DNA from: a virus
Direction: 5' to 3' (one strand)
IMG/VR virus record: IMGVR_UViG_3300016457_000282
Span: 64,001-128,000 of that record
DNA: 64,000 bases
A program made the position numbers and the translations under genes. A model generated the notes under the pieces. It searched no databases, was not told the origin of the DNA, and worked only from the letters and a program-made list of their open reading frames with translations. Position 1 is the first letter of the stretch. Each line of letters begins with the position of its first letter. Positions 12,344 through 31,666 of this stretch are shown piece by piece.

Positions 12344-12363
12344 TATAGGTACCCCCTCAACTT

Positions 12364-13757: not shown

Positions 13758-13758
13758 C

Positions 13759-14049: not shown

Positions 14050-14059
14050 GAAAACCCTC

Positions 14060-14840: not shown

Positions 14841-14873
14841 AAATAAACACCTCCCACTAAACAGAGTATGTTT

Positions 14874-15263
14874 TCAATCTTCTTTCTGCTCACTTAGGTT
14901 CATACCGCTTTCATTCTCCTGTCTCTTAGTTAGAAACGAATCACAGGTCTGTATAATTCCACTACTTTTCAACAACTCTTCTACGAGCTGCTTTCGTTTT
15001 TCCGAAGGCAAACTACGGTCTCCGTTAGTTCTATTAGATAATAGTAACCAACCTAAGAAACACTTTAACGAACAGAAATCAAGAGAGCCACTGCCCGTAT
15101 ACCTAAGAGATTCGAAAGACGTAATGAAACTGGAACAACCTTCTCCAGTTTCTCCTTTAACAATATGCGTTCCAAGGTCGTCAAAAAAGACCCATCCTTT
15201 TTCCGCATGAACATCGAGAGTGATCTTTCCACACCACTCACACTTATGTGTTTCAACTATCAT
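14874..15263 (-). CDS. Hypothetical Zn-binding protein
   Basis: Mirror of 7168-7557. Confidence 0.7.
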   Translation of the reverse strand: MIVETHKCEWCGKITLDVHAEKGWVFFDDLGTHIVKGETGEGCSSFITSFESLRYTGSGSLDFCSLKCFLGWLLLSNRTNGDRSLPSEKRKQLVEELLKSSGIIQTCDSFLTKRQENESGMNLSEQKED

Positions 15264-15280
15264 TTTTCATTACCTCCTTT

Positions 15281-15512
15281 AGAAATTAACTGACTTACCT
15301 TGAAAATACTAACCAACTGAAAAACCGTGTTTGGTCAAAACTTGTTCCACACCTTCTTCACGATCAACTAATACTACTATCTTAACCACTTAAATGTGGG
15401 GAAAGTGATCCTTGACGGTTTGGATTGCTTTCACCAAAGAACGCCCAGTCGTTGCTACATCATCTATGATAGCTACTCTTTCATCTTTCTCTGTAAGCTG
15501 ACCTTCAATCCA
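15281..15512 (-). pseudogene. pyrE: pyrE 3' fragment
   Basis: Mirror of 6919-7150. Confidence 0.85.
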
Positions 15513-15632
15513 TACTCCGTGGATAGCAGCAACCTCGCCACTTACGGGTCAGTTTTTGGCTAGGCTTAGGATGTCATTTGCTATTAGGTCAATGAAGTCA
15601 ATTTTCCTCTCTGTCATCGTTGGTGTCCTTAT

Positions 15633-16017
15633 TTACCAAATACAGTCCCGTGCGATTTCAACTAGCCGGACAAATACCTCATCTTTGACTTGTTCTTCTA
15701 AGGGAAGTTTATTGTAAGGCACTAAGTCTGGATGAATTTTGTTTTCTGGATCATATTTTTCGCCATACTTCCATCCCATTTTCAAGGTATTTCTTCATCC
15801 ATGAGTTATGAGCCTCTTCGGAGTTTTGAAATTTCTTTTTACCAGAACACAAGTCCGCAGTTAAATCCCTGAATTGCTCTTTAAATTCCTTTTCCCGCTC
15901 ATCCCATGGTTTTGGAATGACAGGACACCGTAATTGAACAGCGTGTAACCTAGCCCCTTCATAAACAAACTTTGCTCTACGTTCATTTAGGTCTATTATA
16001 TACCTCTCTTTCATCAA
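15633..16017 (-). pseudogene. Frameshifted RyR-domain protein
   Basis: Mirror of 6414-6798. Confidence 0.75.
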
Positions 16018-16029
16018 TAAAAATCTTTC

Positions 16030-16254
16030 TCAATAATCCCTCCTCTTTACCTGTCTTCCTTCTTGTGGCACAAAAATCATGGCCTGATCTTCCTCTGTTG
16101 GCTTTTTATCTACCATAGGACAATCCACAATCAAAAACTCAGAAAACGGGCAACCTTCCTTGAAAAAACAATTGTCGCAAGGACGCTCTACAATATCAGG
16201 AAGGTCTGAACGCATTACCATAACCATCTGTATGGCAAATACTTGTTCTGACAT
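16030..16254 (-). CDS. Small Cys-rich protein
   Basis: Mirror of 6177-6401. Confidence 0.55.
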   Translation of the reverse strand: MSEQVFAIQMVMVMRSDLPDIVERPCDNCFFKEGCPFSEFLIVDCPMVDKKPTEEDQAMIFVPQEGRQVKRRDY

Positions 16255-16256
16255 AG

Positions 16257-16523
16257 TTACACCGCCTTTATCACTTTCTTTTTCATAAGTTCTTTCAAAA
16301 ATATCGGGCTTGCGGGGGTATGGCTCGCCATTAACACCAAAATGATATAATCCTCTTTAGTTGCTCGCATGATACCCTTCAGTGTTGAAATTAGCAAATC
16401 TCCATCGCTGGCTTTAGCAAAACGACGCCCGCTCAATTGTAAGGCCTCTAATAGCTCAGGTGTAAATTCCCCATCCATTGCTCTGCTTTTTACTATAACC
16501 GGCTTTTTTCTATATGTATCCAT
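16257..16523 (-). pseudogene. Frameshifted phage hypothetical protein
   Basis: Mirror of 5908-6174. Confidence 0.6.
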
Positions 16524-16527
16524 CTGC

Positions 16528-17346
16528 CTATTCCTCTTTTTGTTTTTCCTTCAACTTTTTAATCAATTCACTTGCTTTAAAAATACTAACTAATTGATAA
16601 TTGTGCTCGCTTAAGGCTTCTTTCGCCCCTTCCTCACGATCAACCAGGACCACGACCTTAGCTATGTTGATATGAGGAAAGTGGCCCTTGACAGTTTGGA
16701 TTGCTTTCACCAGAGAACGCCCTGTTGTTGCCACATCATCTACAATAGCCACTCTCTTGTCTTTCTCTGTAAGCTGACCTTCAATCCATTTACACAAGCC
16801 GTATTCTTTAGGCTCTTTTCTGATGATAAAAGTACGATAGTAACCTTTGCCCGCAAGTGCTCCAAGTATTGGATCAGCACCAATTGTAGGGCCACCAACT
16901 GCATCAACCTCTTCAATTACATCTCTCATTATCTCAGCTATAATTGACGCTCCTTCTGACGAAGTTGTAACCATTCTAGCATCAATATAGTAGGTACTTT
17001 GACTACCGGACGAAAGTTTAACATCATCGAAAATTAGAGCATAATCAATCAATAATTGTTTTAATCGGCGCTTATGCGCGGCGTCAGTACTTTTGACTTG
17101 TGCACGTGGCCGAAGATAATAGTGGTCTCCTTTATCAACAAGTCTCCGCATTAAGATTCTTTTCTTGACTCCGTGTAAGTTATACCAAGACACGCCACCA
17201 TCAAAGTGCGTAAAACGTTCTTGCACTTTGCCGCACTGCGTACAAATTCTATAAGCGCGTCTAAATTGAGGAAGTTCTACTTCTTCGAAACATTCAGTAC
17301 CTGAATATTTGTACACATATTTCCAGCGGTGCCATAAATGTAACAT
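16528..17346 (-). CDS. pyrE: Orotate phosphoribosyltransferase with N-terminal extension
   Basis: Mirror of 5085-5903. Confidence 0.9.
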   Translation of the reverse strand: MLHLWHRWKYVYKYSGTECFEEVELPQFRRAYRICTQCGKVQERFTHFDGGVSWYNLHGVKKRILMRRLVDKGDHYYLRPRAQVKSTDAAHKRRLKQLLIDYALIFDDVKLSSGSQSTYYIDARMVTTSSEGASIIAEIMRDVIEEVDAVGGPTIGADPILGALAGKGYYRTFIIRKEPKEYGLCKWIEGQLTEKDKRVAIVDDVATTGRSLVKAIQTVKGHFPHINIAKVVVLVDREEGAKEALSEHNYQLVSIFKASELIKKLKEKQKEE

Positions 17347-17421
17347 TTCAACCCCCTGAGCACTTTCTTCTTTTTCTAATTTGAGCCTGCAAGGCCCCTT
17401 CCCTCTGGGTAAGAGAGGATG

Positions 17422-17721
17422 TCAATACTCTTCCTCTTTATTAGCCTTACTTTTCTTATACTTTTCCCAATACCAAGGCCCGTGACCCAGCAGTGAACAA
17501 AATTCATCAACAGTAATTTCATGCTTCCATCCTTTAACATAATTCGCTAAGTAAATTTTAGGTCTATCTTGAATAATCCTTTCTAAAGCCTCTTCTTCGC
17601 GTTCATGCTCAAACCATTCAGTTCCCCATCCTATCACTCTTTGTATATCAGCTATTTGCTCACCTTTTTCATCAAGGACGAGTAAATTCCGGTTTGTGAA
17701 AAGGAACACTTCTTTAATCAT
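17422..17721 (-). CDS. Hypothetical protein
   Basis: Mirror of 4710-5009. Confidence 0.7.
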   Translation of the reverse strand: MIKEVFLFTNRNLLVLDEKGEQIADIQRVIGWGTEWFEHEREEEALERIIQDRPKIYLANYVKGWKHEITVDEFCSLLGHGPWYWEKYKKSKANKEEEY

Positions 17722-18457
17722 GGTTTACCTCCTTTGAGTCAACCCAATTTTCTGCTTCCTCTCTAGTCAGGAAGAAATGAATTCCTCCTGCACATTCTTG
17801 CCATCTATCCTCACACCACTCATGTGCTACCACTTTTTCTCCGGACCGGTAAATCGCAGTAGCATAGTAATTTTCTACTTTTACCTCATCTGCTCCTTCG
17901 ATTTCCAAACAAATAGCATATTCTGCTCTATACTTTCTTGTTGTAGCACATGACCGGCGAGCTTCTTTAGGGATAAGGAGTTTGACGATGTGGCCGTTTT
18001 TCTTTCCCCAACCAATTAGATCCCCTTCTGGTGCTGGGTGGATACCCACGGTTAAATAATTTATTCTGATATCCCTGAGATTAGCTCCCGTGAGATCAGC
18101 GCCTGTGAGATCAGCTCCTCTGAGATCAGCGCCTGTGAGATCAGCTTCCTTAAGATTAGCTCTCCAGAGGTTAGCTTCCCAGAGATTAGCTCCTCTGAGA
18201 TTAGCTTCCCAAAGGTTAGCTTCCCAGAGATCAGCTCCTCTGAGGTTAGCTTCTCTGAGGTTAGCTCCCCAGAGATCAGCTCTCCAGAGATTAGCTCTCC
18301 AGAGGTCGGCTCCTCTGAGATTAGCTTCCCTAAGATCAGCTCTTGTGAGATCAACTCCTCTCAAATCAACCTCTTCCAGATTAGCTTTTGTTCCCTTTTT
18401 TCCTGTCAGCCACTTTTCGTGGTTCTTTAATATTTGCGCTAATTCCTCCTTATTCAT
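17714..18457 (-). CDS. Pentapeptide-repeat/DUF5758-like protein
   Basis: Mirror of 3974-4717. Confidence 0.9.
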   Translation of the reverse strand: MNKEELAQILKNHEKWLTGKKGTKANLEEVDLRGVDLTRADLREANLRGADLWRANLWRADLWGANLREANLRGADLWEANLWEANLRGANLWEANLWRANLKEADLTGADLRGADLTGADLTGANLRDIRINYLTVGIHPAPEGDLIGWGKKNGHIVKLLIPKEARRSCATTRKYRAEYAICLEIEGADEVKVENYYATAIYRSGEKVVAHEWCEDRWQECAGGIHFFLTREEAENWVDSKEVNHD

Positions 18458-18480
18458 GTTTTCCTCCTTCTACTATTTAT

Positions 18481-19488
18481 CTAACCCCATGCTTCTGCTT
18501 CTTCTCTAGTCAGAAAGAAATGAATTCCTCCCGCACATTCTTGCCATCTATCCTCACACCATTCATGTGCTACCACCTTTTCTCCAGGTCGATAAACGGC
18601 GGTAGCATGACTATTCTTTACTATTACCTCATCTGTTCCCTCTACCTCTAAACAAATAGCATATTCTGCTCTATACTTTCTTGTTGTAGCACATGACCGG
18701 CGAGCTTCTTTAGGGATGAGGAGTTTGACGATGTACCCGTCTTTCTTTCCCCAACCAATTAGATCTCCTTCCGGTGCTGGGTGGATGCCCGTGGTCAAAT
18801 AATTTATTCTGGCATCCTTGAGATTAACTCCTCTAAGATCAGCTTCCGTGAGAATAGCTTCCTTAAGATTAGCTTCCCTAAAGTCAGCCTCTGTGAGATT
18901 AGCTTCCCTAAGATCAGCTCCTGTGAGATCAACTCCTCTGAGATCAGCCCTCGCGAGATCAGCTTCCTTAAGATTAGCTCTCCAAAGGTCAGCTCCTGTG
19001 AGATTAGCTTCCTCAAGATCACCTTCCGTGAGAATAGCTTTCCTGAGATTAGCTCCTGTAAGATTAGCTCTCGAGAGATCAACTTCCCTGAGATCAACTC
19101 CTCTGAGATCAGCCCTCGCGAGATCAGCTTCCTTAAGATTAGCTCTCCAGAGGTTAGCTCCCGTGAGATCAACTTCCGTGAGATCGGCTCCTTGGAGATC
19201 AACTTCCGCGAGAATAGCTTTCTTAAGATTAGCTCCTATGAGATTAGCTTCTCTAAGATCGGCTCTTTGAAGATTAGCCCAGCTAAGATTAGCTTCTCTA
19301 AAGTTAGCTCCTGTAAGATTAGCGTCTTTAAAGTTAGCTTTTCTCAAGTTAGCCTTTGAAAAATCAACTCCTTTTAAATCAACTCCTCTTAAATCAGCTT
19401 TAGTTCCTCCTCCCTTCCCTGTCAACCACTTTTTGTGTTCCTTTAATATCTGCGCTAATTCCTCTTTATCCATGTTTCTCTCCTTCAT
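18481..19488 (-). CDS. Pentapeptide-repeat/DUF5758-like protein
   Basis: Mirror of 2943-3950. Confidence 0.9.
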   Translation of the reverse strand: MKERNMDKEELAQILKEHKKWLTGKGGGTKADLRGVDLKGVDFSKANLRKANFKDANLTGANFREANLSWANLQRADLREANLIGANLKKAILAEVDLQGADLTEVDLTGANLWRANLKEADLARADLRGVDLREVDLSRANLTGANLRKAILTEGDLEEANLTGADLWRANLKEADLARADLRGVDLTGADLREANLTEADFREANLKEAILTEADLRGVNLKDARINYLTTGIHPAPEGDLIGWGKKDGYIVKLLIPKEARRSCATTRKYRAEYAICLEVEGTDEVIVKNSHATAVYRPGEKVVAHEWCEDRWQECAGGIHFFLTREEAEAWG

Positions 19489-19685
19489 TTAATTTCTTCA
19501 ACTTCTTCCAACTTCATTTGATACATTTGATTGCCTTGTAATTCTACGGGAAATGGAGAAGCATCGCCATCTTTGTATCGCCCTCGTAATACCTTTCCTA
19601 TAGGCAACCTATAAGGATTACCTTTGATTACTTTGAACCAAAGAGGAAACACTTTCGCTAACCACTCATTTTTGTGGTCCTTCAC
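19485..19685 (-). CDS. Hypothetical protein
   Basis: Mirror of 2746-2946. Confidence 0.55.
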   Translation of the reverse strand: MKDHKNEWLAKVFPLWFKVIKGNPYRLPIGKVLRGRYKDGDASPFPVELQGNQMYQMKLEEVEEIK

Positions 19686-19697
19686 CGTATAACCTCC

Positions 19698-19952
19698 TCA
19701 GTGAATTTCCAATTGAACAACTTTAAACTCTCCATTCTCCAGCTTCAATGGAGTAGCTAGGATATAAGGAGACACACTTACATCTCCTCCTGTAAAGGTA
19801 AGTGAATTTTTGACATCAACACAAGGTATCAATCTCACAGCTGTATCATCAGTAAAAACTATTACTGCTTCGGGCCAATCACTGGTATCAATCCTTTTGA
19901 TAGTTTTGTTTGTCAAAAACTCCTTCACTGGTTTAAGTGTTAGCCATGCCAT
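19698..19952 (-). CDS. Hypothetical protein
   Basis: Mirror of 2479-2733. Confidence 0.7.
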   Translation of the reverse strand: MAWLTLKPVKEFLTNKTIKRIDTSDWPEAVIVFTDDTAVRLIPCVDVKNSLTFTGGDVSVSPYILATPLKLENGEFKVVQLEIH

Positions 19953-20016
19953 AACTTTCCTCCTTTTAGTAAGCTATTAGAATGCGGCTTCTCGAACGTT
20001 ACAGACTACCCAAAAT

Positions 20017-20259
20017 TCATCTTCGCCTTAAATTCACGTACGATGGCTCCAGACCAAGTAAGTGGATTATCTCGAGCGCAGTTCCCTCAATCACGCCATC
20101 TAAACCGTACGTATAAGCATAGTGGTCTGCTTGAACTTTTCTAGCTTGTTTCAATGACATTGCCATCTGAATCGCCGTTCTTATCCTCTCCTTAACCCAA
20201 ACTTCTTGATCAGAGGTGACCACTACCTTCTCTGGCATTTTCTCTCCTTCTACGCTCAT
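20017..20259 (-). CDS. Hypothetical protein
   Basis: Mirror of 2172-2414. Confidence 0.7.
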   Translation of the reverse strand: MSVEGEKMPEKVVVTSDQEVWVKERIRTAIQMAMSLKQARKVQADHYAYTYGLDGVIEGTALEIIHLLGLEPSYVNLRRR

Positions 20260-20350
20260 TAACGCACCTCCTCTGCAAGAAAAATTAAAAGTTTTTTAAA
20301 TAAAAAAAAGAGTACGTAACAAGTATTCGTTCAACTAACCAAATAATGCG

Positions 20351-20821
20351 TTAGATTAATTGGGCTTCTCTAAGTTTGATAATATCCTCTACCTCAAAAC
20401 CGCCGGCTCGGAGATCTCTTAGCTCCGATGCTGATAAGACTCGGTTATGTCTTCTGCACTGGAAGACCTCTATTTCCTTCATTTCTTGTTTCTCCTCCAA
20501 CTTCGATGCTAACTCCTGAACTTTTTGTCGGTAATCCTCGATCTCAGCATCACAACCTCCTAGCGATTTGCCTAATTCCAATTCGAGCTCCGATATTCTT
20601 TTTTCTCGCCCGATTATCTTTTGTACCAATTCACTAGGTATCGTCCAAGATGATGTCCCATCCTCGGTGAAGTAGCTTCCTTCACCGTCCTCTATTTCAA
20701 CTACAATCTTTCCGTAGTAACTCTTCTCAGCATAAACATAACTTAAGATCCCTTTCTCATCTTTCTCCTCTACCATTTCAGTGTTTCTCTCACCGTTAAG
20801 TACTAGAACTAAACTATCCAT
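20351..20821 (-). CDS. Hypothetical coiled-coil protein
   Basis: Mirror of 1610-2080. Confidence 0.75.
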   Translation of the reverse strand: MDSLVLVLNGERNTEMVEEKDEKGILSYVYAEKSYYGKIVVEIEDGEGSYFTEDGTSSWTIPSELVQKIIGREKRISELELELGKSLGGCDAEIEDYRQKVQELASKLEEKQEMKEIEVFQCRRHNRVLSASELRDLRAGGFEVEDIIKLREAQLI

Positions 20822-21195
20822 TACCTTACCTCCTTGGTTTTATTAGTAGGACTCTTTTGACTAGGTGCTAGCCTGAGTCCGTCGTTCTCGGGATTAACAT
20901 TCTTGTAGAATGAGTAACTTGCTTTTTCTACAGCAACAGCTAACTGATCATCGGCTGTGTTAGAGAAGTAACGCTCGACCCTCTTTTCTTTCTCCTTCAT
21001 CTCTGTCGACACTGAGTCAATGTTGTCAAACTCTTTACCGGTTGCTTCAGCTATCATCCTTAATATTTCCTCTTGCATCCCGATCGTCAGTCGTATATCT
21101 CCTAGTCCTAAGTGCACTCTGTCGTCGAACCTACAATCTTCAAAGTATTTCGCAACTGTCATCAGTAAATTATCTAGAGTAACATGTATCATCAT
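20821..21195 (-). CDS. Hypothetical protein
   Basis: Mirror of 1236-1610. Confidence 0.7.
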   Translation of the reverse strand: MMIHVTLDNLLMTVAKYFEDCRFDDRVHLGLGDIRLTIGMQEEILRMIAEATGKEFDNIDSVSTEMKEKEKRVERYFSNTADDQLAVAVEKASYSFYKNVNPENDGLRLAPSQKSPTNKTKEVR

Positions 21196-21377
21196 GTTTG
21201 CTCCTTTCAGAATTCTAAGAGATACTAACGTTTCGCTAAAGCGTAGATATCACTATGTTTAGTGAAACTGTACAACTCAATTTTCTTAGCATCAAACTTC
21301 CACAAAAGTACTTCACAGTTAATTTCTTCTCTACGTACCGGTTAAAATTTCAACCGTTCTCTACTCATAACAACTTC

Positions 21378-21659
21378 TTACACTCTCAACCCTCTTCTGT
21401 GAACCTCTTGTAATAGGGCCTCACCTAAGGGATGAAAAACGTCGATGTCGCCAACCTCGAGGTGATAAAGCTCACACTCTAGATCGAAGGTAGCTTGCTC
21501 ACCTCTTAGGAAACAAAGAGTCTTGTAACCTTCTAATACAACCTTCTCTTTCGCTCTTCTGAGCAGCTTAATTGTGTTCAACAAATGTTCATCAGTCATA
21601 TCACAAATCCTGATTTTACGGCCATCTTTAGTAGTCCAGATCTTAGTTTGCTTCCGCAT
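21378..21659 (-). CDS. Hypothetical phage protein
   Basis: Mirror of 772-1053. Confidence 0.7.
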   Translation of the reverse strand: MRKQTKIWTTKDGRKIRICDMTDEHLLNTIKLLRRAKEKVVLEGYKTLCFLRGEQATFDLECELYHLEVGDIDVFHPLGEALLQEVHRRGLRV

Positions 21660-21815
21660 TTTCCTTCTCCTGTTGAACTTCCAAAGTCTTTCTTAGAGCT
21701 TTCTTATATCCACCATTCCGCCTGATACTCACTTTCGTTTTCTTATAACGCCCTTCTTTCGTACTCCACCAACGAACTTCAAAGAAACTAGTTACATACT
21801 CTTTACAATCTCCAT

Positions 21816-23520
21816 ACAGAGAAAGCCATGATGCTTTAGCGCATGAATGAATCTGTGTTATGTTTCTACGCATTTCCATCCTCCATATGGATATACTACA
21901 TTCATATCCTTAAGCTTGAATCGTGTTCCATCGTATGTATATCCAAATCCACCTGTCAAACTATAACCCTTCAACACATCAATATGATTGTCGATTTCAA
22001 TTGTAGCACCTTCCTTGAATCCAACTTCAGAGAACTTCTTTCGATAGCCTTTGACACCAGGATTTACTTTGACTTGATAACCCTGTTTTAACAGTGGTAG
22101 AATTTTCGTACTGTATACGTTATGAAATGACTCTGGATTTCCATTTCGATTCGTAGCTACACGAATACACTTCTTGTTTTTGATGACATAGTACAATCGA
22201 TTACGTTCGCTATTCTTCATTCTACGATTATGCTGTCGTTTCTGTTCAAAACGTACCACATGTTTATCGATGAATGGTTCATGTTTGATTTCAACGTTGT
22301 TTCGCATCAGTTTGTTGATAGCAATACAGTAAGCATCATTACAGTGAGATTTGACAAGATTGAGCTCTCTACGAATAACATATGAATCAGCACCAATACA
22401 GAACCAAACATGTTCTTTACCGAAAGCATCTGACAACCAATCTTTTAAAAACGGCATAATGATATTGAGTCTGGATGTAGATGTGAAGTCTGCTATTTTC
22501 GTTTTGATTTTGCTTTGTACTCTTTTCAGCAACTGAGCATCAGTATGTACTTTAACGTGACAATCTGGGCACAGTGTAATAAGATTATCCGGATGATCTT
22601 TACCGTTTTGAGATCTGGGTACTACATGATGCAGCTGAAATTGAACGTTCTTCTTTCCGCATAGCTGACATGCATACTTATCACGGTGTAGTACATAAGC
22701 ACGAATATTTTGGTAACCGAATAATCTTCCGTGTTGATACTGCTCACCTTCAATATCTGAATTCATCATACGTTGGATGTCAAACTTAGCATATTCAAGT
22801 GAGATGTTAGCGTCAGGAACGTATTCAACTATTTTCTGTATAGCAGCTTTATGTGACTCTAGAAAATGTCGAACTGATGGAGTCAACCGTCCATCTAAAC
22901 GTCTTCTATTTTCGAATCTAGCTGGTCTATGCTTTGGTACGAGTCCTTTTCTCTTAATACGTTTACGTCTGAAGTATCGTCTCATATTTCGATATCCCCG
23001 TCTTATCTCAAGTAATTGCTTGATTTCTTTCGACCTTGTGTGAAATTCGATACTTAGCAATTGCTTGACTTTGTTATACATAGTGATTCTGACTAAACAA
23101 ATACCAATCGTATCTCCTGGATCTACTCCAATCCAGTATATAGGGTTATCTCTTTGCTGCGATAGTGTCTTGAACACTTGTACGACCATAATTTTACCGA
23201 CAAATCGAATGACTTTAGCATTCATCTGTCGCAACCAACGTTTAACCATATCCAACTTTCGTGTTGGATGTAAAATGTTATTTCTTCCATCTACAAGAAA
23301 TATTAATCGTTGATGTTGCATCGATTTTCCTCCTGGTGTATGCCCCTATAGGGCAGGAGCAGTAATACGTCCCTGGCCTGAGCTATGGCTTGAAAGTACG
23401 AACGCATTCAATCGAATGCTCCTTCGCAGAGCCAGGAGCTGGAACGACACCCCTGGGTGCATCACCATAGTCCATTGGCATGATCACAAGCCAGGATGCT
23501 TTAGCTCCTAGTCATGTGAC
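21816..23520 (-). mobile_element. IS200/IS605-superfamily IscB (OMEGA) element without tnpA
   Basis: Left-end hairpin GTCACATGACTAGGAGCTAAAGCATCCTGGCTTG at 23520, omega-RNA, iscB, right-end hairpin ending near 21816. Confidence 0.85.
21858..23321 (-). CDS. iscB: RNA-guided endonuclease IscB
   Basis: PLMP-like ILHPT, RuvC-I IGVDPG, Arg-rich bridge helix, RF.NR..G.L.PS, RuvC-II LEYAKFD, HNH HHVVPRS..G.D...NL.TLC..CH, RuvC-III SH.NDA. Confidence 0.96.
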   Translation of the reverse strand: MQHQRLIFLVDGRNNILHPTRKLDMVKRWLRQMNAKVIRFVGKIMVVQVFKTLSQQRDNPIYWIGVDPGDTIGICLVRITMYNKVKQLLSIEFHTRSKEIKQLLEIRRGYRNMRRYFRRKRIKRKGLVPKHRPARFENRRRLDGRLTPSVRHFLESHKAAIQKIVEYVPDANISLEYAKFDIQRMMNSDIEGEQYQHGRLFGYQNIRAYVLHRDKYACQLCGKKNVQFQLHHVVPRSQNGKDHPDNLITLCPDCHVKVHTDAQLLKRVQSKIKTKIADFTSTSRLNIIMPFLKDWLSDAFGKEHVWFCIGADSYVIRRELNLVKSHCNDAYCIAINKLMRNNVEIKHEPFIDKHVVRFEQKRQHNRRMKNSERNRLYYVIKNKKCIRVATNRNGNPESFHNVYSTKILPLLKQGYQVKVNPGVKGYRKKFSEVGFKEGATIEIDNHIDVLKGYSLTGGFGYTYDGTRFKLKDMNVVYPYGGWKCVET

Positions 23521-23540
23521 GGAGTTTAAGTGTACTCTAA
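23325..23540 (-). ncRNA. omega-RNA: scaffold about 23520-23325, guide from the 5' flank about 23521-23540
   Basis: GCACCCAGGGGTGTCGTTCCAGCTCCTGGCTCTG core, GGCCAGGGAC segment and TGCCCTATAGGGGCA terminal hairpin, directly upstream of iscB. Confidence 0.85.
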
Positions 23541-24580
23541 ACGCTACGATACAGAACCCACACATTGGAATACGACACTGTACTTTGCAGATCACGTGAA
23601 GAAAACCGTGATGCTTTAGCACCTAATCATGTGACTATGTTTAAGCGAAGAAAAAAATCTAAGACGCCAATACAGATCACTACGTTACGCGACAGCACCT
23701 TTCACTTTACTGCACTTCAAAATACCACAGTACACTTAACCGTTACCACACACAACTTCAGACTGCTTTAGTTGACTTTACATTACCGGTGCAGGACCAG
23801 GCCTTACATCACCTTCGCAATATGATACGGTACCTCTCTTTACCATACTCCCCCACAACACGGAGCATTACGAAGCCACCACTCGAGTTCGCTAAACTTA
23901 CTCAAGCCTCCACAGCATAGTACGATACACCACCTTCACTTTAGTTGACTTTGCAATAGCTTCTCCTCAGAGCTGTCTTTTCTTCCACTTTTCCTTACTT
24001 TCTTAACAAAAACTACCAACGCATGTTGAAAAGGCTACCAAACAGTGCAGTCAACTACCTTAGAGACAAACTTCTAGGTTTTCTCTGAAAACTTTTGATA
24101 AAACTCCTTACATCTAAGTTATTCAGTACTTAATTGCTATGACCAAGACAGTGCGTCGCATGCAAAACAATACAATACCTTTACTTTACACAACATTGGT
24201 TTGCTCTACTGAACCAAGCTTTCACGCCCCGTAAAAACTCTTTGACTGCACTGTACAACATTCTTTGCCACATAATGGAACAATCTCTCTTTAAGAGACA
24301 TCTGAGAAGGAACTTCCCTTCTTCTAACCACCTATGAGTCATCGTATGTTCAGTTAGTCAAAGTAGTTTACTTTTACATCAAATTACATAACACCACGAT
24401 ACCGGTTACACGACTACACTTTTCCGTGCTAATACTACCTTTCCCCATTCTACCTACGATGGCTCTGTAATCTTCTGGTTTGCAAACTGATTTTCCGCTC
24501 ACGGAACTGAGCATCACTGTGCTCATGCTTAGCTCTATAAAGACAAACCTTCACGCTTCGTTACAGTGCATTACAAACGC
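23541..24580 (-). ncRNA. Non-coding array with 5-nt NNNGY periodicity; candidate guide RNA(s) for the adjacent RAMP protein
   Basis: Minus strand example: GAAGGT GATGT AAGGC CTGGT CCTGC ACCGGT AATGT AAAGT CAACT AAAGC AGTCT GAAGT TGTGT GTGGT AACGGT; no credible ORF. Confidence 0.75.
23593..23635 (-). mobile_element. Solo IscB-element end hairpin, family A
   Basis: GTCACATGATTAGGTGCTAAAGCATCACGGTTTTCTTCACGTG. Confidence 0.7.
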
Positions 24581-24623
24581 CATACAGAGAAAGTCATGAT
24601 GTTTTAACACAGGATCATATGAC
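24581..24623 (-). mobile_element. Solo IscB-element end hairpin, family A, with a compensatory base change
   Basis: GTCATATGATCCTGTGTTAAAACATCATGACTTTCTCTGTATG. Confidence 0.7.
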
Positions 24624-24637
24624 CACTACTACATACT

Positions 24638-25252
24638 TCAAGGTGACACTTCTACTATTTCGAAACGACCATAACCACCGGAGCCTCTCCACTGTCCTAA
24701 CCCAACGTATTTACCATAATCAAGCATTTGCTCAATAGCGTCACGATTAATCCCAACTTTATTCTTCAGAATTCTCACTGTAAACTGAATTTCAGTCCCT
24801 GCATCTACATAATCACTTCTGCAAACAGTCACTCGAGGACCTTTCGCTGTTAACGTTCTCAAAGGTCGCTCTAAGCAACCATCTGGTTCCTTCTTTCCTA
24901 ACGGTATCTGCCGTGGGTCAATAAAAACTACCAGATCGATCCACTTCTTATAAGCAACGATCTTAGACAAGGCTCCTGCGGACATGCACACTTCGCATGC
25001 GCTTTTAAGGAAGCCTTTGATCATGTAGTTGTAGATGAAAATACCTTGCTCGTTCTTATGAAATCCGGTCCAACCTCTCTCCTCTACTTCTTCGACGGTT
25101 TCCGTTTCTTCCTCTTCCAGTTCAGGTTCTGGTGCCTTACTTGCTACAAAACGAGTATAGACTTCTGGATCTTTTGGCACAGTACCTAAAAGTTTCTCCA
25201 ACAAGCGGATTTTTACGTCAAACCTTTCTTCCAACTCCGAGAGCTTCTTCAT
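24638..25252 (-). CDS. Stand-alone Cas7/RAMP-fold protein (Vipr-like)
   Basis: N-terminal strand then LLG, IKGFLKSA helix, C-terminal Gly-rich loop YVGLGQWRGSGGYGRF typical of RAMPs; no other cas gene seen. Confidence 0.8.
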   Translation of the reverse strand: MKKLSELEERFDVKIRLLEKLLGTVPKDPEVYTRFVASKAPEPELEEEETETVEEVEERGWTGFHKNEQGIFIYNYMIKGFLKSACEVCMSAGALSKIVAYKKWIDLVVFIDPRQIPLGKKEPDGCLERPLRTLTAKGPRVTVCRSDYVDAGTEIQFTVRILKNKVGINRDAIEQMLDYGKYVGLGQWRGSGGYGRFEIVEVSP

Positions 25253-25529
25253 GTTTTTAACCCTCCTTATTTGATATTGAGTTAAATCGAGCTACTACTA
25301 CAAAACTCTCTTTCTCAAGCTTACAGTGAACCTTCTAAAGAGAGTCTCGTGCCTTGAATAACATTGTTACTCTTGCTACAAATACGCTCGTCCTCGCTAT
25401 AACATATAAGACGACCGGCATAAGCGTCACAAAAAATCTTCACTACACTTAGGCAAGGCTTTGCCGCAAGCTAAGTATTTGTCTTTCGTGCCATAGATGT
25501 AACATTTCATAGCTTACTCTGCTACTTTT

Positions 25530-26312
25530 TTAGTCTAATCTTCCTAACATAGGCCAATGAACCATAATAAAAGATCCTCTTACAGTCACTGTATTAGAGC
25601 CACCTTCAACTAAGTCTTTGACACTCAAAGTGGCTTTTCCGTAAGTTCGGAATAAAGCCTGGGCTCGCTCGTGTCCATAGTAGTCTTCAGAGTAGGCTCT
25701 CCAAATATAGAGAGCTCCTTCAACTATTTTGATTTCGTGATGACCCATGTTAAAAGAATCGCCTTGAACCAACGTGTCAAACCCATCACTTTTTTCACAA
25801 GAAGGATAAACAAACAGTTTCAGTCGACTAAAAGAAATTGAAGAAGCTACAAAGAAAGCTCTCTGCCGCAGCCCTGGTATCACGCTACCTTTTAGTTTTA
25901 TTTTACCGTTACACTGCCCGAGTCGAGGTAATTTGTATATGTATTCAGAGTCATTTAGAATTTCTACAATATCTTCTACTCCTAAATCAGGAGCAGACAA
26001 CCAATTCTGAGATAAAGGAGGTTCAGGACAAAAACGCCCTGGAACTTTACGAGCAAGTTCTTGGACCCCTTTGGAAATTAAATCTCTCAGCTCACTTTCT
26101 TTAGGAGGCGGGTAATAACAGTTAATTAATTTAATGTCAGCGGCCTGTAATGGTTCGGATTCAAATTCCCGGGGAGTTGTACCTCCTGCAGGATTTATAC
26201 TGCCCGGCATTTGTACTCTCACTACAGGAGTATCAGGCTCAATATACCAATGATACCTTTCGTTCAAATAACCTTTTAGTTTTCGTAAGCTACAGTAGGA
26301 CAAACTCCCCAA
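25530..26312 (-). CDS. Hypothetical protein
   Basis: 260 aa ORF co-oriented with neighbours. Confidence 0.7.
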   Translation of the reverse strand: MGSLSYCSLRKLKGYLNERYHWYIEPDTPVVRVQMPGSINPAGGTTPREFESEPLQAADIKLINCYYPPPKESELRDLISKGVQELARKVPGRFCPEPPLSQNWLSAPDLGVEDIVEILNDSEYIYKLPRLGQCNGKIKLKGSVIPGLRQRAFFVASSISFSRLKLFVYPSCEKSDGFDTLVQGDSFNMGHHEIKIVEGALYIWRAYSEDYYGHERAQALFRTYGKATLSVKDLVEGGSNTVTVRGSFIMVHWPMLGRLD

Positions 26313-26363
26313 TTATCTTCTTGATATGCTAAAGAGAACTGTACATTGAAAGTCTTAGTATTG

Positions 26364-26669
26364 CTAGCTCCTGTATTTAACAGTTTCACAACTTAACCTC
26401 CTAAGAGTAAGCTGGCTAACCAAAGCCAGAAGTTCTTCATCAGAAAATTCCTTATGGACTATTCTAATGAATCCGTTAAGGGTAAGAGTATCAATTCTGA
26501 ATAAGACTTCTTCCCCAGAACTAGTCTTACCTACAATAAAAACTTCATTCTGGTCAGAGTCATATACATAAATGTAGTCACCAATTTTAACTCTCAGTCC
26601 TGACATAAGGGCTTCTATTACAACTGTGCAAGCATCTCTTGACTTCGTCCTTAATCCTTCACTGGACAT
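26364..26669 (-). CDS. Hypothetical protein
   Basis: AAGGAG RBS. Confidence 0.7.
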   Translation of the reverse strand: MSSEGLRTKSRDACTVVIEALMSGLRVKIGDYIYVYDSDQNEVFIVGKTSSGEEVLFRIDTLTLNGFIRIVHKEFSDEELLALVSQLTLRRLSCETVKYRS

Positions 26670-26687
26670 AACTTAACTCCTTATAAG

Positions 26688-27098
26688 TTAGTCATTTATG
26701 TTAAGCCATTTCCCTACTTTAGCTGCAGAACCCCAACAGTCGGCCGGAGCTTCGTTATACAAATAGTAAACATAAGCAGGTAAATTTCGAATGTTAACAT
26801 CATCTGCGCACAGCACTGCTCCTGTAAGATCATTACTCAACACAGCTCTTAGAAAGTCTCCTATTGGTACTCTCTTCTCGATGTATAACCGTAAACCACG
26901 AAACATGCGCTGAGGGATGTAAAACTCTCCTACTTCGTATGCTACATCTGTACAGTCAATAGCATCGAAAGTCACTCCCCCTTTAAAAGACTCTCCGAAG
27001 AGGTAGACTAAAGAGTCCTCAATCTCTTGTGCTCCGTTGATGAGCTTCGCGCACGGATCGGTATCATTCACTAAAAATGTAATCGTAACTTTCTTCAT
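26688..27098 (-). CDS. Hypothetical phage protein
   Basis: GDFL.AVL.NDL..A...AD..N ... P..CWGS pattern. Confidence 0.75.
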   Translation of the reverse strand: MKKVTITFLVNDTDPCAKLINGAQEIEDSLVYLFGESFKGGVTFDAIDCTDVAYEVGEFYIPQRMFRGLRLYIEKRVPIGDFLRAVLSNDLTGAVLCADDVNIRNLPAYVYYLYNEAPADCWGSAAKVGKWLNIND

Positions 27099-27766
27099 GA
27101 TACCTCCTTACTACTACCTGTGATTAGTTGGTCTAGAGTTAACAATCTCAAACGGTCCTTAATTATTCTTGAGGCATACGTGTTGCTGCTTAAGACCACT
27201 GAGATTTTTTCATTTGAGAAGAACGAGCTTTTAAGATCAAACGATGTCTTAGTAGGCACTAGTACGCCCAGCTTTTCGAGGATCACGCTTACCACGTCGG
27301 CAGGTAAGTCCTTATTAGCTTGGAAGTATAACGCTTCTGAAAACTTACGGTCAACTGAGCCGTGACCCATTACTAAGAAGGAAATAGGTGGTATACTAAT
27401 CCGTCCGCGTACTGCTACATAACGGAGAAATTCCTTTGGCGATGCCGCAGACGAGGTAAATTTCTCATACTCCAATTCATCGAGTAACTGCTTAAGCGTC
27501 TGATCTAGCTCCTTTTCGGACGCCATCTCAATAAAAAAGCGCATTCTGCCTGTATAAAGGCGCTCGCAATACCAACTAGAGAAGTCGACGAGATCTGAAT
27601 AAGTCATATCAGGATCTTTCTTTAGTTTTTTGAGTATTGTACTTTGTGTATACATAGGCGCAAAACGAATAGTAATCGTTTTCTTGAAGAATTGAAATTC
27701 TAAGCTTGCTCGCGAATTAGGTAATCGCGCAGTTAGAATTTTTACACTAGACGGTATAAAGTGCAT
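27095..27766 (-). CDS. Hypothetical protein
   Basis: ORF with RBS, coupled to the next gene. Confidence 0.7.
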   Translation of the reverse strand: MHFIPSSVKILTARLPNSRASLEFQFFKKTITIRFAPMYTQSTILKKLKKDPDMTYSDLVDFSSWYCERLYTGRMRFFIEMASEKELDQTLKQLLDELEYEKFTSSAASPKEFLRYVAVRGRISIPPISFLVMGHGSVDRKFSEALYFQANKDLPADVVSVILEKLGVLVPTKTSFDLKSSFFSNEKISVVLSSNTYASRIIKDRLRLLTLDQLITGSSKEVS

Positions 27767-29529: not shown

Positions 29530-30675
29530 TTAATCAATATAGTAAACAGTACCAAAAGGTACTCGTATGTCTAACGTTTGGAAAGTTCTAACTACAATCC
29601 AAATCACAGAGTAAGTAGGTGTCTTTTGAGGAAAGGTACCAAAAGTGTCTGTAAAGTATACGAACAAGTCAGGTTTCAGTTTTCTCTTCTCAACATCTTC
29701 AAAAGGCGGTGCTAGACTAGTACCTCCACCTCCTCTCAAGTTCGCAACCAGCTCGTCATACGACGGGTTATGTAATACAGCGTGAATATCAGCATCTATC
29801 ACATAAACCCAATGTTCTGAAACTAACTTCTCAACTCGTTGATATTCAGCACAGAATTTCGAAAGTTCTTGTTGCGAAATACTACCTGAGGTATCAAAAG
29901 CCGTAACGAGATTAAACTCCTTCTTGTAGTTACCAGCTAAACGAACGTCGCAAGCGATTTGGTAGTACGGTAACTTCGTATAGGTTGGTGTAGCAACTTT
30001 CTTTCCTATGAAAGACAAAATCCTAGCCGCGATTACTCGCTCCCAAGGAACTTGAGACTTATAACCTTGGTCAATCTCACGCAGCACGTCGGCAGAAACA
30101 CTACCTTGGGACTTGAGATGATTCCCAAACTCATATAATGATCCAGTACTTATCGGCAGAGGTTCAGTAAAGTGCTTAGGGGGTCTGATACCATCTACAG
30201 TAAGCGGTACTAATCGTATTGTCTTGCCGCCAAACTTAAACTCGGTTTTTCCTTCCTTTTTAGTCTTATCTACTAAGCGTTGTAACTCTCGATAAATCAA
30301 CTCGGCAGGCCCATCAGGAATATCTCGAAACAGTATAAACCTATGTTGTTCAACCCAATTCACAGACTCAAGCTCGAGGACAGTAGTTAATAAGTTGTTT
30401 ACAACATGGTCAATAGCTAGTCCCCAAAGGACTCGATCTTTTCCAGCACCTCTTCTAATGTGGTTGAATATGTAGTGTAGCAGTTCGTGACAGTACACAA
30501 ACAACTGAGTTTGATAATCTTCTTCTTCAGATATTACAATGTGACTATCTCGAACCAGACAACCGCCTATTTCACTAGGCAACTTATCGAAGTAGATCGG
30601 AATTTGTAATGCAGCAGATGTTCCTACCTTTCGATAAGCATCAATTCTTAGTTTTGTATCCTTTTGTTTCTTCAT
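29530..30675 (-). CDS. Metallopeptidase-VWA protein (DUF2201-like), MoxR partner
   Basis: HELLH, A.D..VN, MIDAS DTSGS, GGGGT, FTD. Confidence 0.88.
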   Translation of the reverse strand: MKKQKDTKLRIDAYRKVGTSAALQIPIYFDKLPSEIGGCLVRDSHIVISEEEDYQTQLFVYCHELLHYIFNHIRRGAGKDRVLWGLAIDHVVNNLLTTVLELESVNWVEQHRFILFRDIPDGPAELIYRELQRLVDKTKKEGKTEFKFGGKTIRLVPLTVDGIRPPKHFTEPLPISTGSLYEFGNHLKSQGSVSADVLREIDQGYKSQVPWERVIAARILSFIGKKVATPTYTKLPYYQIACDVRLAGNYKKEFNLVTAFDTSGSISQQELSKFCAEYQRVEKLVSEHWVYVIDADIHAVLHNPSYDELVANLRGGGGTSLAPPFEDVEKRKLKPDLFVYFTDTFGTFPQKTPTYSVIWIVVRTFQTLDIRVPFGTVYYID

Positions 30676-30676
30676 T

Positions 30677-31666
30677 TTACTCTCCTAAAATAGCTGCTAG
30701 TTCATCTACAATTTCTTTCATGTGTCTATTACGATACAGGAACTTGACCTGATCGGGAAATCGAGTGAGAACTAGTCTGAAGTAACAAGCTCGAGCGTCC
30801 GGAGTCAACTTCTTAATTGTCACAAGTATGCGGTCTGTGGGCTTGTATGACGATAGAAAGGCTGCCGCGGCTACTTGATCTTTCAAATCAGCGTCAGTGA
30901 AATCTTTCGACAAAAGATCATTGAGAGACTGATTCAGAAAAGGCCAAGCATCTACTATTTTGGATCCAGCATCGATTCCTACTACACCTGGAGCCACTTC
31001 AATTGAGAATCCTGCCTTAAGTGCCTTATCTAAAGAAAACCAAGCTCGAGGCGATGGAAACTTCTGACTCGTTCCTGGATCAGGCGTATATAAGTAGTCT
31101 GTTCCATAAGAAGACAAGAATGTAATAATTCTATTATCAAGACCTTGAGAAATCGCATACTTTACGAAGTCTTCTAGAGTAGGAGTGTACCCGACGAAAA
31201 GGTCGAACCTATCCATAATAGGCGCCATTATCTCAGAGGCGCTAGCTGACGCCAGACCAATATTTCCAGCTGCAACGAACCTGGTCGACTCTGGAACTGT
31301 ATGTCCATGCAGTCTTCTGCACAATAGTAACTCATATAAAGGGCTTTGATTGTATTCACGAACTAAATGAATGTCGTCGAAAAACAGAGCCGTGTTTTCC
31401 TTTTCTGGTAGCCAATCAGGCCGAGACCAAACAGTCCTTCTCTCAACTAGCCAAGGAATGCCTTTAGCCTCACCTGGCTCCATTAAATAGAGTCGTACCT
31501 CAGTCGGTGTCAGTACAGCAAACGATTCTGAGACTTCACTTATAGCTTGGAAGAAAATTTCGCTCTTCCCAATACCTGGCGCCCCTGAGGCCAAAACAGA
31601 TAAATTGTTTCGCAGACACTTTACTAGTACTTCTTTTAACGCGTAACTTCCTTCGATTCTATACAT
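30677..31666 (-). CDS. MoxR-like AAA+ ATPase
   Basis: Walker A GAPGIGKS, Walker B LFFDD, AAGN, DRF, SPR.W. Confidence 0.9.
   Translation of the reverse strand: MYRIEGSYALKEVLVKCLRNNLSVLASGAPGIGKSEIFFQAISEVSESFAVLTPTEVRLYLMEPGEAKGIPWLVERRTVWSRPDWLPEKENTALFFDDIHLVREYNQSPLYELLLCRRLHGHTVPESTRFVAAGNIGLASASASEIMAPIMDRFDLFVGYTPTLEDFVKYAISQGLDNRIITFLSSYGTDYLYTPDPGTSQKFPSPRAWFSLDKALKAGFSIEVAPGVVGIDAGSKIVDAWPFLNQSLNDLLSKDFTDADLKDQVAAAAFLSSYKPTDRILVTIKKLTPDARACYFRLVLTRFPDQVKFLYRNRHMKEIVDELAAILGE

What the first reader, a model, noticed from the sequence alone, without database searches (positions are those of the whole stretch)
23541..25252. Stand-alone Cas7/RAMP gene followed by a ~1 kb pentamer-phased non-coding array: candidate non-CRISPR RNA-guided system
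Seen: the 204 aa protein ends in the RAMP Gly-loop GLGQWRGSGGYGRF, and there are no other cas genes or CRISPR repeat-spacer arrays in the window. Directly downstream on the same strand the DNA has no credible ORF and carries GY at every fifth position. Example from 23816 leftwards: GAAGGT GATGT AAGGC CTGGT CCTGC ACCGGT AATGT AAAGT CAACT AAAGC AGTCT GAAGT TGTGT GTGGT AACGGT TAAGT GTACT GTGGT ATTTT GAAGT GCAGT AAAGT GAAAGGT GCTGT CGCGT AACGT. Runs of about 4-8 pentamers restart at longer units ending in GGT. Phased blocks sit near 23541-23590, 23670-23960, 24135-24270, 24370-24430 and 24495-24580. Known: Cas7-type RAMPs polymerise along RNA with a fixed nucleotide step. From memory, this layout resembles recently reported viral VIPR systems (RAMP protein plus RNAs of alternating GGY/NN that read a gapped DNA target); that should be checked against the literature. 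Here the fixed part is relaxed to NGY. Inference: each pentamer docks one subunit and the variable bases specify a non-contiguous target, probably for repression since no nuclease partner is evident.
Basis: partly seen in the sequence, partly recalled or inferred. Interest (0 to 1): 0.95.

Follow-up and report, generated by a model that had tools for sequence, protein, structure and literature searches.

The report
Phage VIPR guide-RNA system
A 75-kb uncultured phage carries a VIPR system, a CRISPR-related RNA-guided DNA silencer first described in 2026. It is a lone Cas7-like protein followed by about 650 bases of five-base-repeat guide genes, so it is a new example of a known kind, with a relaxed repeat and an IscB transposon inserted at the array's end.

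Summary
On the minus strand downstream of the 204-aa ORF (24638-25252), GY recurs every 5 nt (autocorrelation z about 6 against shuffles). This is the only such region in the 75-kb genome.

The protein has a Cas7/Csm3-type RAMP fold (Z 11). Profile comparison shows it is homologous to the experimentally validated Vipr of phage SUSP1 (90% probability). It keeps the W-R of the G-loop and the thumb arginine that hold G2 and Y3 of each repeat. The aspartate that reads G1 is replaced by Q, which fits the relaxed NNNGY unit.

32 of 34 viral contigs encoding homologs carry a period-5 array beside the gene on the same strand, and they share no other neighbouring gene. The locus is therefore a VIPR system (bioRxiv 2026), without a vap gene and without a tail. 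Its arrays are broken by +1 shifts into runs of about 5 units, and most runs start with a canonical NNGGY unit.

The HNH/RuvC gene downstream is an autonomous IscB with its own omega RNA. Two IscB-end mini-elements bracket the array; they are not vrRNA tails.

No target of the window's guides was found, and expression could not be tested.

This scan has already noted VIPR-like loci 195 times in at least 151 genomes. Verdict: new member of a known kind.

The parts
24638..25252 (-). vipr gene: 204-aa single-RRM RAMP with a thumb hairpin (residues about 125-149) and the G-loop GLGQWRGSGGYG
   Evidence: ORF. AF2 model with pLDDT 84.7. Foldseek finds type VII Cas7 and Csm3 at E 5e-8. VIA gives Z 11, and the top 33 rows are all CRISPR RAMPs. 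hhalign to the SUSP1 Vipr family gives 90.3% probability. There are 339 metagenomic homologs.
24581..24625 (-). IscB-derived mini-element 'soloC' (left-end-like 5' half, right-end-like 3' half) between the vipr stop and the array. It is not part of the VIPR system.
   Evidence: Alignment A3 with the IscB left end, right end and an axis copy. The motif GCTAAAGCATC recurs. No period-5 signal.
24481..24577 (-). vrRNA array block 1 (NNNGY pentamers)
   Evidence: GY lag 5+10 z 3.8; segmentation.
24366..24432 (-). vrRNA array block 2
   Evidence: z 3.2; segmentation.
24142..24284 (-). vrRNA array block 3
   Evidence: z 4.9; segmentation.
23672..23957 (-). vrRNA array block 4, the best preserved. It holds nine runs of 4-9 pentamers separated by 1-3 extra bases, and seven of the runs open with a canonical NNGGY unit (the run at 23851 opens with GGAGT).
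   Evidence: z 6.4; run list; an internal duplicated guide segment at 23766-23785 and 23939-23958.
23599..23636 (-). IscB left-end-like solo copy 'soloB', with a terminator-like hairpin at 23610-23623, inserted in the array. It is not a vrRNA tail.
   Evidence: 62-nt direct repeat with the IscB left end; alignment A3; terminator-like site.
23541..23598 (-). vrRNA array block 5, cut off from the rest of the array by soloB
   Evidence: z 3.1; segmentation.
23362..23540 (-). IscB omega RNA (HEARO) scaffold, with the presumed guide just 5' of it. It belongs to the inserted IscB element, not to VIPR.
   Evidence: Rfam HEARO at 28.3 bits, E 0.006, which is below the gathering score. The match covers model positions 1-211 and lies directly upstream of the IscB start. 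No period-5 signal.
21858..23321 (-). IscB RNA-guided endonuclease (RRXRR/RuvC plus HNH), an independent mobile element
   Evidence: Pfam RRXRR 1.7e-33 and HNH 1.7e-13. NCBIfam NF040563 guided_IscB at 223 bits against a cut-off of 175. No homolog in the 34 related vipr loci.

Best explanation
This is a phage-encoded VIPR system (Viral Interference Programmable Repeat): one vipr gene plus a downstream array of vrRNA genes on the same strand.

By analogy with the characterised SUSP1 system, the array is transcribed and Vipr protomers polymerise head to tail along the RNA, one protomer per pentamer. Each protomer pair sequesters the fixed bases. Here these are G and Y, held by the conserved W188, R189 and thumb R145. 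The third fixed base of the canonical GGY is free because the aspartate that reads it in SUSP1 is Q187 here.

The first two bases of each unit are presented for pairing with double-stranded DNA in which every third base is skipped. Binding would silence genes of a competing phage, satellite or prophage.

In this clade the array has no conserved 3' tail and no accessory (vap) gene. It is instead punctuated by single extra bases into runs of about 4-9 units, and each run opens with a canonical NNGGY unit. I infer that each run is one guide.

An IscB/omega-RNA transposon and two of its mini-elements have inserted into and beside the array.

What is shown here: the fold, the homology, the periodicity, the co-occurrence of gene and array in many phages, and the predicted head-to-tail self-association. 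What is inferred: transcription, RNA binding, the skip rule and repression.
For: **Periodicity**
- z is about 6, confined to five blocks on the gene's strand, and unique in the genome.

**Fold**
- AF2 pLDDT is 84.7.
- Foldseek finds type VII Cas7, Csm3 and Cas7-11 at E 5e-8.
- VIA gives Z 11.0 to Csm3 (9g9a_D, rmsd 3.6 over 156 residues), and the top 33 rows are all CRISPR RAMPs.

**Homology to a validated Vipr**
- hhalign of A1 against the SUSP1 family alignment A2 gives 90.3% probability and E 1.5e-6 over 136 columns.
- It aligns GLGQWR with GVGDWR, and R145 with SUSP1 R138.
- The residue roles come from 10.64898/2026.04.26.720927.

**Family-wide linkage**
- 32 of 34 IMG/VR loci have a period-5 GY region above 4 SD next to the homolog on the same strand.
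- Only 5 of 34 have one on the opposite strand, and only 24 of 6982 windows elsewhere pass the threshold.
- DNA similarity between loci stops at the ORF, and no neighbouring gene is shared. Gene and array therefore travel as a module.

**Selection**
- In strain L069 vipr differs by 0.33% (the protein is identical), against 3.2-3.8% for the flanks.

**Self-association**
- The homotrimer prediction scores ipSAE 0.69 against a best control of 0.16.
- That mark was reached by 20 of 30 proteins solved as pairs of one chain and by 1 of 23 solved as single chains.
- Runs agree in at least 52% of contacts, and partner pLDDT is at least 75.
- The two surfaces are used head to tail.
- Solved Cas7 filaments exist, so this pass may partly come from memory.

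**Virus context**
- The record is an IMG/VR virus record with PHROG hits.

**Run architecture**
Against:
- No target of any window guide was found above chance.
- The window's array is less regular than many homolog arrays. No 60-nt stretch reaches 8 of 12 in-phase GY units, whereas most homologs do. About 265 nt of non-periodic DNA and two IS fragments interrupt it. Part of it may therefore be decayed.
- No Pfam, NCBIfam or PADLOC model matches the protein.
- The sequence link to SUSP1 Vipr covers only residues 55-204 and is of moderate strength.
- I could not see the papers' supplementary tables, so the published type of this clade is unknown.
Confidence: 0.85

Rival explanations
1. It is a VIPR locus in decay. 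The protein is intact, but much of the array is no longer functional because IscB-derived insertions and point changes have eroded it. Only a few runs, if any, would still make working guides.
For: - Units without G at position 4 occur inside runs.
- Phasing is weaker than in most homologs.
- Gaps of 48, 81 and 184 nt are non-periodic.
- soloB splits off block 5, and its hairpin looks like a terminator.
Against: - The overall period-5 excess (about 37-43) lies within the range of the homolog arrays, 24-61.
- vipr is under strong constraint.
- The array is identical in eight independent contigs from several samples.
Confidence: 0.1
2. The pentamer tract works as DNA rather than RNA, for example as a phased binding array for a DNA-binding protein. 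The RAMP protein would then have another role.
For: No transcript evidence exists here. Period-5 DNA repeats could in principle be protein binding sites.
Against: - The motif sits on the gene's coding strand in 32 of 34 loci, against 5 of 34 on the other strand. This points to a transcribed, strand-specific element.
- The protein conserves the RNA-contacting G-loop and thumb residues of Vipr.
- The published family binds such RNA.
Confidence: 0.03
3. The array belongs to the downstream IscB, either as an extended guide or omega-RNA region, or with IscB acting as a nuclease accessory (vap) of the RAMP.
For: IscB lies 1.3 kb downstream on the same strand, and IscB-end motifs bracket the array. 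Some published VIPR types have HNH-containing vap proteins.
Against: - None of the 34 related loci has an IscB homolog, yet 32 have arrays.
- IscB has its own omega RNA directly upstream and a right end after its stop codon.
- It matches the autonomous IscB equivalog model.
Confidence: 0.02

Closest known systems
Type II VIPR of Escherichia phage SUSP1 (Vipr + vap1 + four vrRNAs; bioRxiv 10.64898/2026.04.26.720920 and .720927)
   Same: - It is phage-encoded, with a small single-RRM RAMP of about 200 aa that has a thumb and a G-loop.
- The G-loop W-R and the thumb arginine align.
- Pentamer arrays lie on the gene's strand.
- SUSP1's own units are often NNAGT or NNTGT, like those here.
   Different: - Similarity is detectable only at profile level.
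- D177 (the G1 reader) is Q187 here.
- There is no vap gene.
- There is no conserved 3' tail or pseudoknot, and no repeated leader.
- Guides are runs of about 4-9 units set off by +1 shifts, instead of 9-16 units with a tail.
- The array is much longer, with about 650 nt phased.
Non-canonical and staggered VIPR arrays (YNNNG, NNNGG and NNNNG repeats and 'staggered arrays' in 10.64898/2026.04.26.720920; WGT/NN and TGH/NN clusters in 10.64898/2026.10.21.760802)
   Same: - Only G and Y are fixed, and position 3 is mostly A or T in the window (66% W).
- vrRNAs are tail-less and abut one another.
- A Vipr-like fold is encoded next to the array.
   Different: - I could not view the figures or tables, so identity with a named type or cluster is not established.
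- The rule that each run opens with a canonical NNGGY unit after one extra base is not stated in the text I could read.
- The second preprint describes arrays of 10 repeats, whereas runs here have 3-15 units.
Cas7 backbone subunits of class 1 CRISPR-Cas (Csm3, Cmr4, type VII Cas7, Cas7-11)
   Same: The RAMP fold is shared (Z 9-11). Head-to-tail polymer formation is predicted.
   Different: - There are no cas operon, CRISPR array or Cas6/Cas5 partners.
- The step is 5 nt rather than 6 nt.
- The guide information is non-contiguous.
- Sequence identity is 12-20%.
IscB-omega RNA (IS200/IS605-family OMEGA system), for the neighbouring element only
   Same: The match to NF040563 is above its cut-off. 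A HEARO-like RNA lies upstream. Left-end and right-end hairpin motifs are present.
   Different: No tnpA was seen nearby. The HEARO score is below the gathering threshold. The element is a neighbour of the VIPR system, not a component of it.

Membership tests
VIPR (Vipr + vrRNA) | Vipr protein: minimal RAMP with a single RRM core, a thumb and a glycine-rich loop | tested here: met
   AF2 model. Cas7/Csm3 matches at Z 11 and E 5e-8. The G-loop is invariant in 41 homologs.
VIPR (Vipr + vrRNA) | Sequence homology to an experimentally validated Vipr | tested here: met
   Profile-profile hhalign to the SUSP1 Vipr family gives 90.3% probability and E 1.5e-6 over 136 columns. No direct tblastn hit to SUSP1.
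VIPR (Vipr + vrRNA) | Tandem pentanucleotide repeats (YNNGG or a related consensus, at least 4 units) in the intergenic DNA flanking vipr | tested here: met
   Period-5 z is about 6, in five blocks, with runs of up to 9 units of NNNGY. The same holds in 32 of 34 homolog loci.
VIPR (Vipr + vrRNA) | No CRISPR array or cas operon; viral or proviral context | tested here: met
   The record is a virus record. The genome has no CRISPR-like repeats. The neighbours have no Cas domains. Not every ORF of the genome was screened.
VIPR (Vipr + vrRNA) | vrRNAs are expressed and co-purify with Vipr | not testable with these tools
VIPR (Vipr + vrRNA) | Guides match natural DNA targets under the 1-nt-skip (NNx) rule | tested here: inconclusive
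   The window's guides gave only chance-level hits. One homolog guide (L016) has a 22/22 in-frame match in another phage. This is suggestive only.
VIPR type II (SUSP1 / P. fulva clade) | vap1 accessory gene next to vipr | tested here: not met
   No neighbouring gene is shared among the 34 loci or with the window.
VIPR type II (SUSP1 / P. fulva clade) | 9-16 YNNGG units followed by an invariant structured 3' tail | tested here: not met
   No repeated tail was found. The only repeated motifs are IscB-end fragments. Runs have 3-15 units, median 5.
CRISPR-Cas class 1 effector (Cas7) | Encoded in a cas operon with a CRISPR repeat-spacer array | tested here: not met
IscB / OMEGA (neighbouring element) | IscB protein (RuvC split by HNH, with the N-terminal RRXRR/PLMP region) and an upstream omega RNA | tested here: met
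   NF040563 at 223 bits against a cut-off of 175. Pfam RRXRR and HNH. The HEARO match is sub-threshold at 28.3 bits, E 0.006, but correctly placed.

The most novel reading that the evidence does not exclude
In this tail-less VIPR clade the guide array would be punctuated by frame rather than by structure. A single extra base (usually a purine) followed by a canonical NNGGY unit starts each guide. Vipr would nucleate on that strong unit, spread over 3-14 relaxed NNNGY units, and stop at the next +1 shift. One transcript of about 1 kb would then yield some 20 short, independent gapped guides.

The one candidate natural target found for a homolog guide fits this. It matches 22 of 22 positions exactly from the first to the last unit of a run, and not at all in the neighbouring runs.
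Probability: 0.3. Interest if true: 0.6.

Novelty: new member of a known kind. Interest (0 to 1): 0.42.

Why it matters
VIPR is a very recent addition to the RNA-guided systems, so each well-described divergent clade helps to define what is essential.

- **Repeat specificity.** This locus links a relaxed repeat (only G and Y fixed) to a specific change in the G-loop: D to Q at the residue that reads the first G in SUSP1. That gives a directly testable structure-function prediction.
- **Guide punctuation.** The clade lacks both a vap gene and a tail, and its arrays are divided by +1 shifts headed by canonical units. This bears on how guides are delimited without a processing handle.
- **Mobile-element interplay.** An RNA-guided nuclease transposon (IscB) has colonised the guide array of another RNA-guided system.

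None of this changes the category. It is an instance of a published family that this scan has met many times.

Tried and rejected
**Conserved 3' tail.** The 62-nt direct repeat (23488-23549 and 23603-23664) and a third copy after the vipr stop looked like vrRNA tails. Alignment with the IscB left and right ends shows they are IS-derived mini-elements.

**Hammerhead or other known RNAs in the array.** Rfam at E up to 1 gave only the HEARO match and one chance hit.

**Targets of the window's guides under the NNx rule.**
- Two patterns in viral contigs gave 0 and 11 hits, and one pattern in metagenome contigs gave 13 hits. All were at chance level, and none extended into neighbouring runs.
- A local scan of the phage's own genome and the 34 related loci stayed at the level of shuffled guides.

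**Homolog guides.** The L004 and L009 seeds gave chance hits only. The L016 guide gave the 22/22 lead described under Noticed in passing.

**Reading the third variable base as paired (NNN with no skip).** In the L016-L093 match it agrees at 1 of 11 positions (sequences), so this rule is not supported there.

**Array turnover among near-identical strains.** Eight contigs are identical. One differs by 3.8%, which is no more than its flanking genes, so this says nothing about guide turnover.

**Segmentation statistics.** My dynamic-programming segmentation also forces GT-ending units onto coding controls. Its positions 4-5 are therefore not evidence. Only the autocorrelation tests and positions 1-3 are used.

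**Sequence-level family assignment.** Pfam, NCBIfam, PADLOC and PDB sequence searches gave nothing for the protein.

**Published type.** The paper's supplementary tables are not held, so the type (I-VII) could not be assigned.
Full report
**What is there.**
On the minus strand, the ORF 24638-25252 encodes a 204-aa protein that ends in GLGQWRGSGGYGRFEIVEVSP. A 1316-nt gap follows it, with only short ORFs of at most 68 aa. Next comes a 487-aa ORF at 21858-23321.

**Is the periodicity real?**
- The autocorrelation of GY on the minus strand of 23322-24637 peaks at lags 5, 10 and 15. The z values are 6.2, 5.5 and 5.1 against 300 dinucleotide-preserving shuffles, and neighbouring lags are depleted.
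- In 300-nt windows over both strands of the window, this region fills the top twelve places, up to 10 SD above the mean.
- Over the whole 75-kb genome it is the only such region, with z up to 12.
- The signal resolves into five blocks: 24481-24577, 24366-24432, 24142-24284, 23672-23957 and 23541-23598, with z from 3.1 to 6.4.
- The stretches between the blocks, the vipr ORF, the upstream intergenic region and the omega-RNA region show nothing.
- The phased DNA adds up to about 650 nt, or some 130 units.
- A sister strain has a 1-nt deletion inside the longest minus-strand ORF of the gap, which argues against coding.

**The protein.**
- No Pfam, NCBIfam, PADLOC or PDB sequence match was found.
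- It has 339 metagenomic homologs with an invariant G-loop.
- The AlphaFold model (pLDDT 84.7) matches Cas7-type RAMPs.
  - Foldseek finds type VII Cas7, Csm3 and Cas7-11 at E 5e-8.
  - VIA-align gives Z 11.0 to Csm3, type VII Cas7 and a Cmr subunit, and the top 33 rows are all CRISPR RAMPs.
  - In BFVD the best match is a gut-virome protein annotated as a RAMP superfamily protein (E 1.9e-17, 36% identity).
- A homotrimer prediction passes its controls: ipSAE 0.69 against a best control of 0.16.
  - That mark was reached by 20 of 30 proteins solved as pairs of one chain and by 1 of 23 solved as single chains.
  - Runs agree in at least 52% of contacts, and partner pLDDT is at least 75.
  - The two surfaces are used head to tail, as expected for a filament.
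  - Solved Cas7 filaments exist, so the pass may partly be memory.

**The literature.**
VIPR systems are real and recent.
- A small phage-encoded RAMP (Vipr) polymerises on vrRNAs made of YNNGG pentamers.
- The GGY bases are held by the protein, and the NN bases read double-stranded DNA with one base skipped. The outcome is transcriptional silencing of rival phages and satellites.
- Seven types are described, with six vap genes among them.
- Alternative repeats (NNNGG, YNNNG, NNNNG), staggered arrays and ribozyme-interspersed arrays are mentioned.
- A second group reports Vipr-linked clusters with WGT/NN and similar motifs.

**Membership.**
- I located the SUSP1 VIPR locus in NC_028808: a 195-aa gene with YNNGG arrays on both sides.
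- I built an alignment of its family.
- Profile-profile comparison with the window's family gives 90.3% probability and E 1.5e-6 over 136 columns, covering residues 55-204.
- GLGQWR aligns with SUSP1 GVGDWR, and R145 aligns with SUSP1 R138.
- According to the structure paper, W178 and R138 hold G2, R179 holds Y3, and D177 (with H17) reads G1.
- The window's protein therefore keeps the readers of G2 and Y3 and has Q in place of the G1 reader. This fits an array in which G and Y are fixed and the preceding base is free. That base is G in 18% of units in the window and 42% in homolog arrays.
- This residue-to-motif link is an inference.

**Family-wide linkage.**
- 34 IMG/VR contigs encode homologs at 32-87% identity.
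- In 32 of them a period-5 GY region above 4 SD lies beside the gene on the same strand, usually directly downstream and 280-1000 nt long. Only 5 have one on the opposite strand, and only 24 of 6982 windows elsewhere pass the threshold (examples).
- DNA similarity to the window ends at the ORF boundary.
- No neighbouring gene is shared, either with the window or among the loci.
- Gene and array thus move together through unrelated phage genomes, without a vap gene.

**Array architecture.**
- In 13 homolog arrays the phase changes are almost always +1 (114 of 128).
- Runs have 3-15 units, with a median of 5.
- The first unit after a shift has G at position 3 in 88% of cases, against 32% for later units.
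- The extra base is a purine in 70% of cases.
- The window shows the same pattern more weakly: 56% against 11%, and 12 of 16 extra bases are purines.
- This probably corresponds to the 'staggered arrays' of the paper, whose figure I could not see.
- I infer that each run is one guide.

**The neighbour.**
- The 487-aa ORF is an IscB: NF040563 scores 223 bits against a cut-off of 175, and Pfam finds RRXRR and HNH.
- A HEARO/omega-RNA match lies directly upstream at 23362-23520. Its score is sub-threshold (E 0.006), but it covers the full model.
- A right-end motif follows the stop codon.
- The 62-nt repeat that I first took for a vrRNA tail is a copy of the IscB left end (soloB, 23599-23636).
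- A left-end/right-end hybrid (soloC, 24581-24625) sits between the vipr stop and the array. Earlier notes of this scan had suggested this.
- No related vipr locus has an IscB, so it is an inserted element and not a nuclease partner.

**Function.**
- Expression could not be tested.
- The window's longest clean runs specify only 16-18 bases. Their exact NNx patterns gave chance-level hits in the viral and metagenome collections, with no extension. The own genome and the related loci held nothing above shuffled guides. The lack of self-targets agrees with the paper.
- For an 11-unit run of the homolog locus L016, the NNx pattern matches another phage contig (L093) at 22 of 22 positions.
  - The match covers the start codon and the first nine codons of a 113-aa ORF, with NN on codon positions 1-2.
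  - It also matches a 28-contig phage family at 21 of 22 positions.
  - Neither match continues into the neighbouring runs.
  - Permuted seeds gave 6 and 2 contigs.
  - The full pattern has no match in 596 Gb of prokaryote genomes.
  - Six guides were tried and the targets are AT-rich, so this is suggestive and not proof.

**Verdict.**
The system belongs to a family published in 2026. This scan has already noted VIPR-like loci 195 times in at least 151 genomes. It is therefore a new member of a known kind.

Its points of interest are:
- the Q-for-D change that parallels the relaxed repeat;
- the tail-less, vap-less layout punctuated by +1 shifts;
- the IscB invasion of the array.

Strain data show the protein under strong constraint: it differs by 0.33%, against 3.2-3.8% for the flanks.

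Noticed in passing
whole record; axis at window 11215/11216: The 150,430-nt virus record is 100% identical to its own reverse complement, so it is two 75,215-nt copies joined head to head. Window 1-11215 mirrors 11216-22430, and vipr appears twice in the record. This could be a fold-back assembly artefact or a replicative form of a hairpin-ended linear genome. Other contigs of the same phage (50-108 kb) could settle which.
   Followed up: partly
window 21815-23540 (-), plus 23599-23636, 24581-24625 and about 11482-11551: An intact IscB sits with its omega RNA and right end, with no tnpA nearby. There are at least three short copies of its ends. Two of them are hybrids with a left-end-like 5' half and a right-end-like 3' half. 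Two of the copies flank or split the VIPR array.
   Followed up: partly
L016:3794-3848 against L093:380-721(-) and L081:12314-13138(-): An 11-unit guide of a related VIPR array matches the start of a 113-aa ORF in another phage contig (IMGVR_UViG_3300029288_000106) at 22/22 positions under the 1-nt-skip rule. It matches the 3' end of a phrog_674 gene in a 28-contig phage family at 21/22. Both matches are in the codon frame, and both are confined to the run. The controls leave it suggestive only.
   Followed up: partly
L069 (SRR21462135 contig) against window 23822-27551: In a sister strain the vipr gene differs at 2 of 615 nt and the protein is identical. The upstream genes differ by 3.2% and the array by 3.8%. 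This indicates either strong constraint on vipr or a recent exchange of the gene.
   Followed up: partly
window 23766-23785 and 23939-23958: Two runs of the array share a four-unit segment (A[AT]TG[TC] AAAGT CAACT AAAG) at 90% identity, 173 nt apart, including the off-consensus unit CAACT. The array seems to have grown by duplication of guide segments.
   Followed up: no
window 35534-36496 (-): A 320-aa reverse transcriptase-like ORF (phrog_2825 at 3.5e-40, phrog_1423 'Reverse transcriptase' at 1.2e-17) lies in the same phage.
   Followed up: no
window 18050-19450 (-): The coding region of a 335-aa ORF (18481-19488) has five repeated stretches matching phrog_7713. It gives a secondary GY signal at lags 5, 10 and 15, caused by tandem coding repeats. 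It is not a second guide array.
   Followed up: no
window 29530-31666 (-): An ATPase gene (phrog_1297) is followed by a 381-aa HNH endonuclease gene (phrog_1314). This could be a two-gene nuclease module. It was not examined.
   Followed up: no
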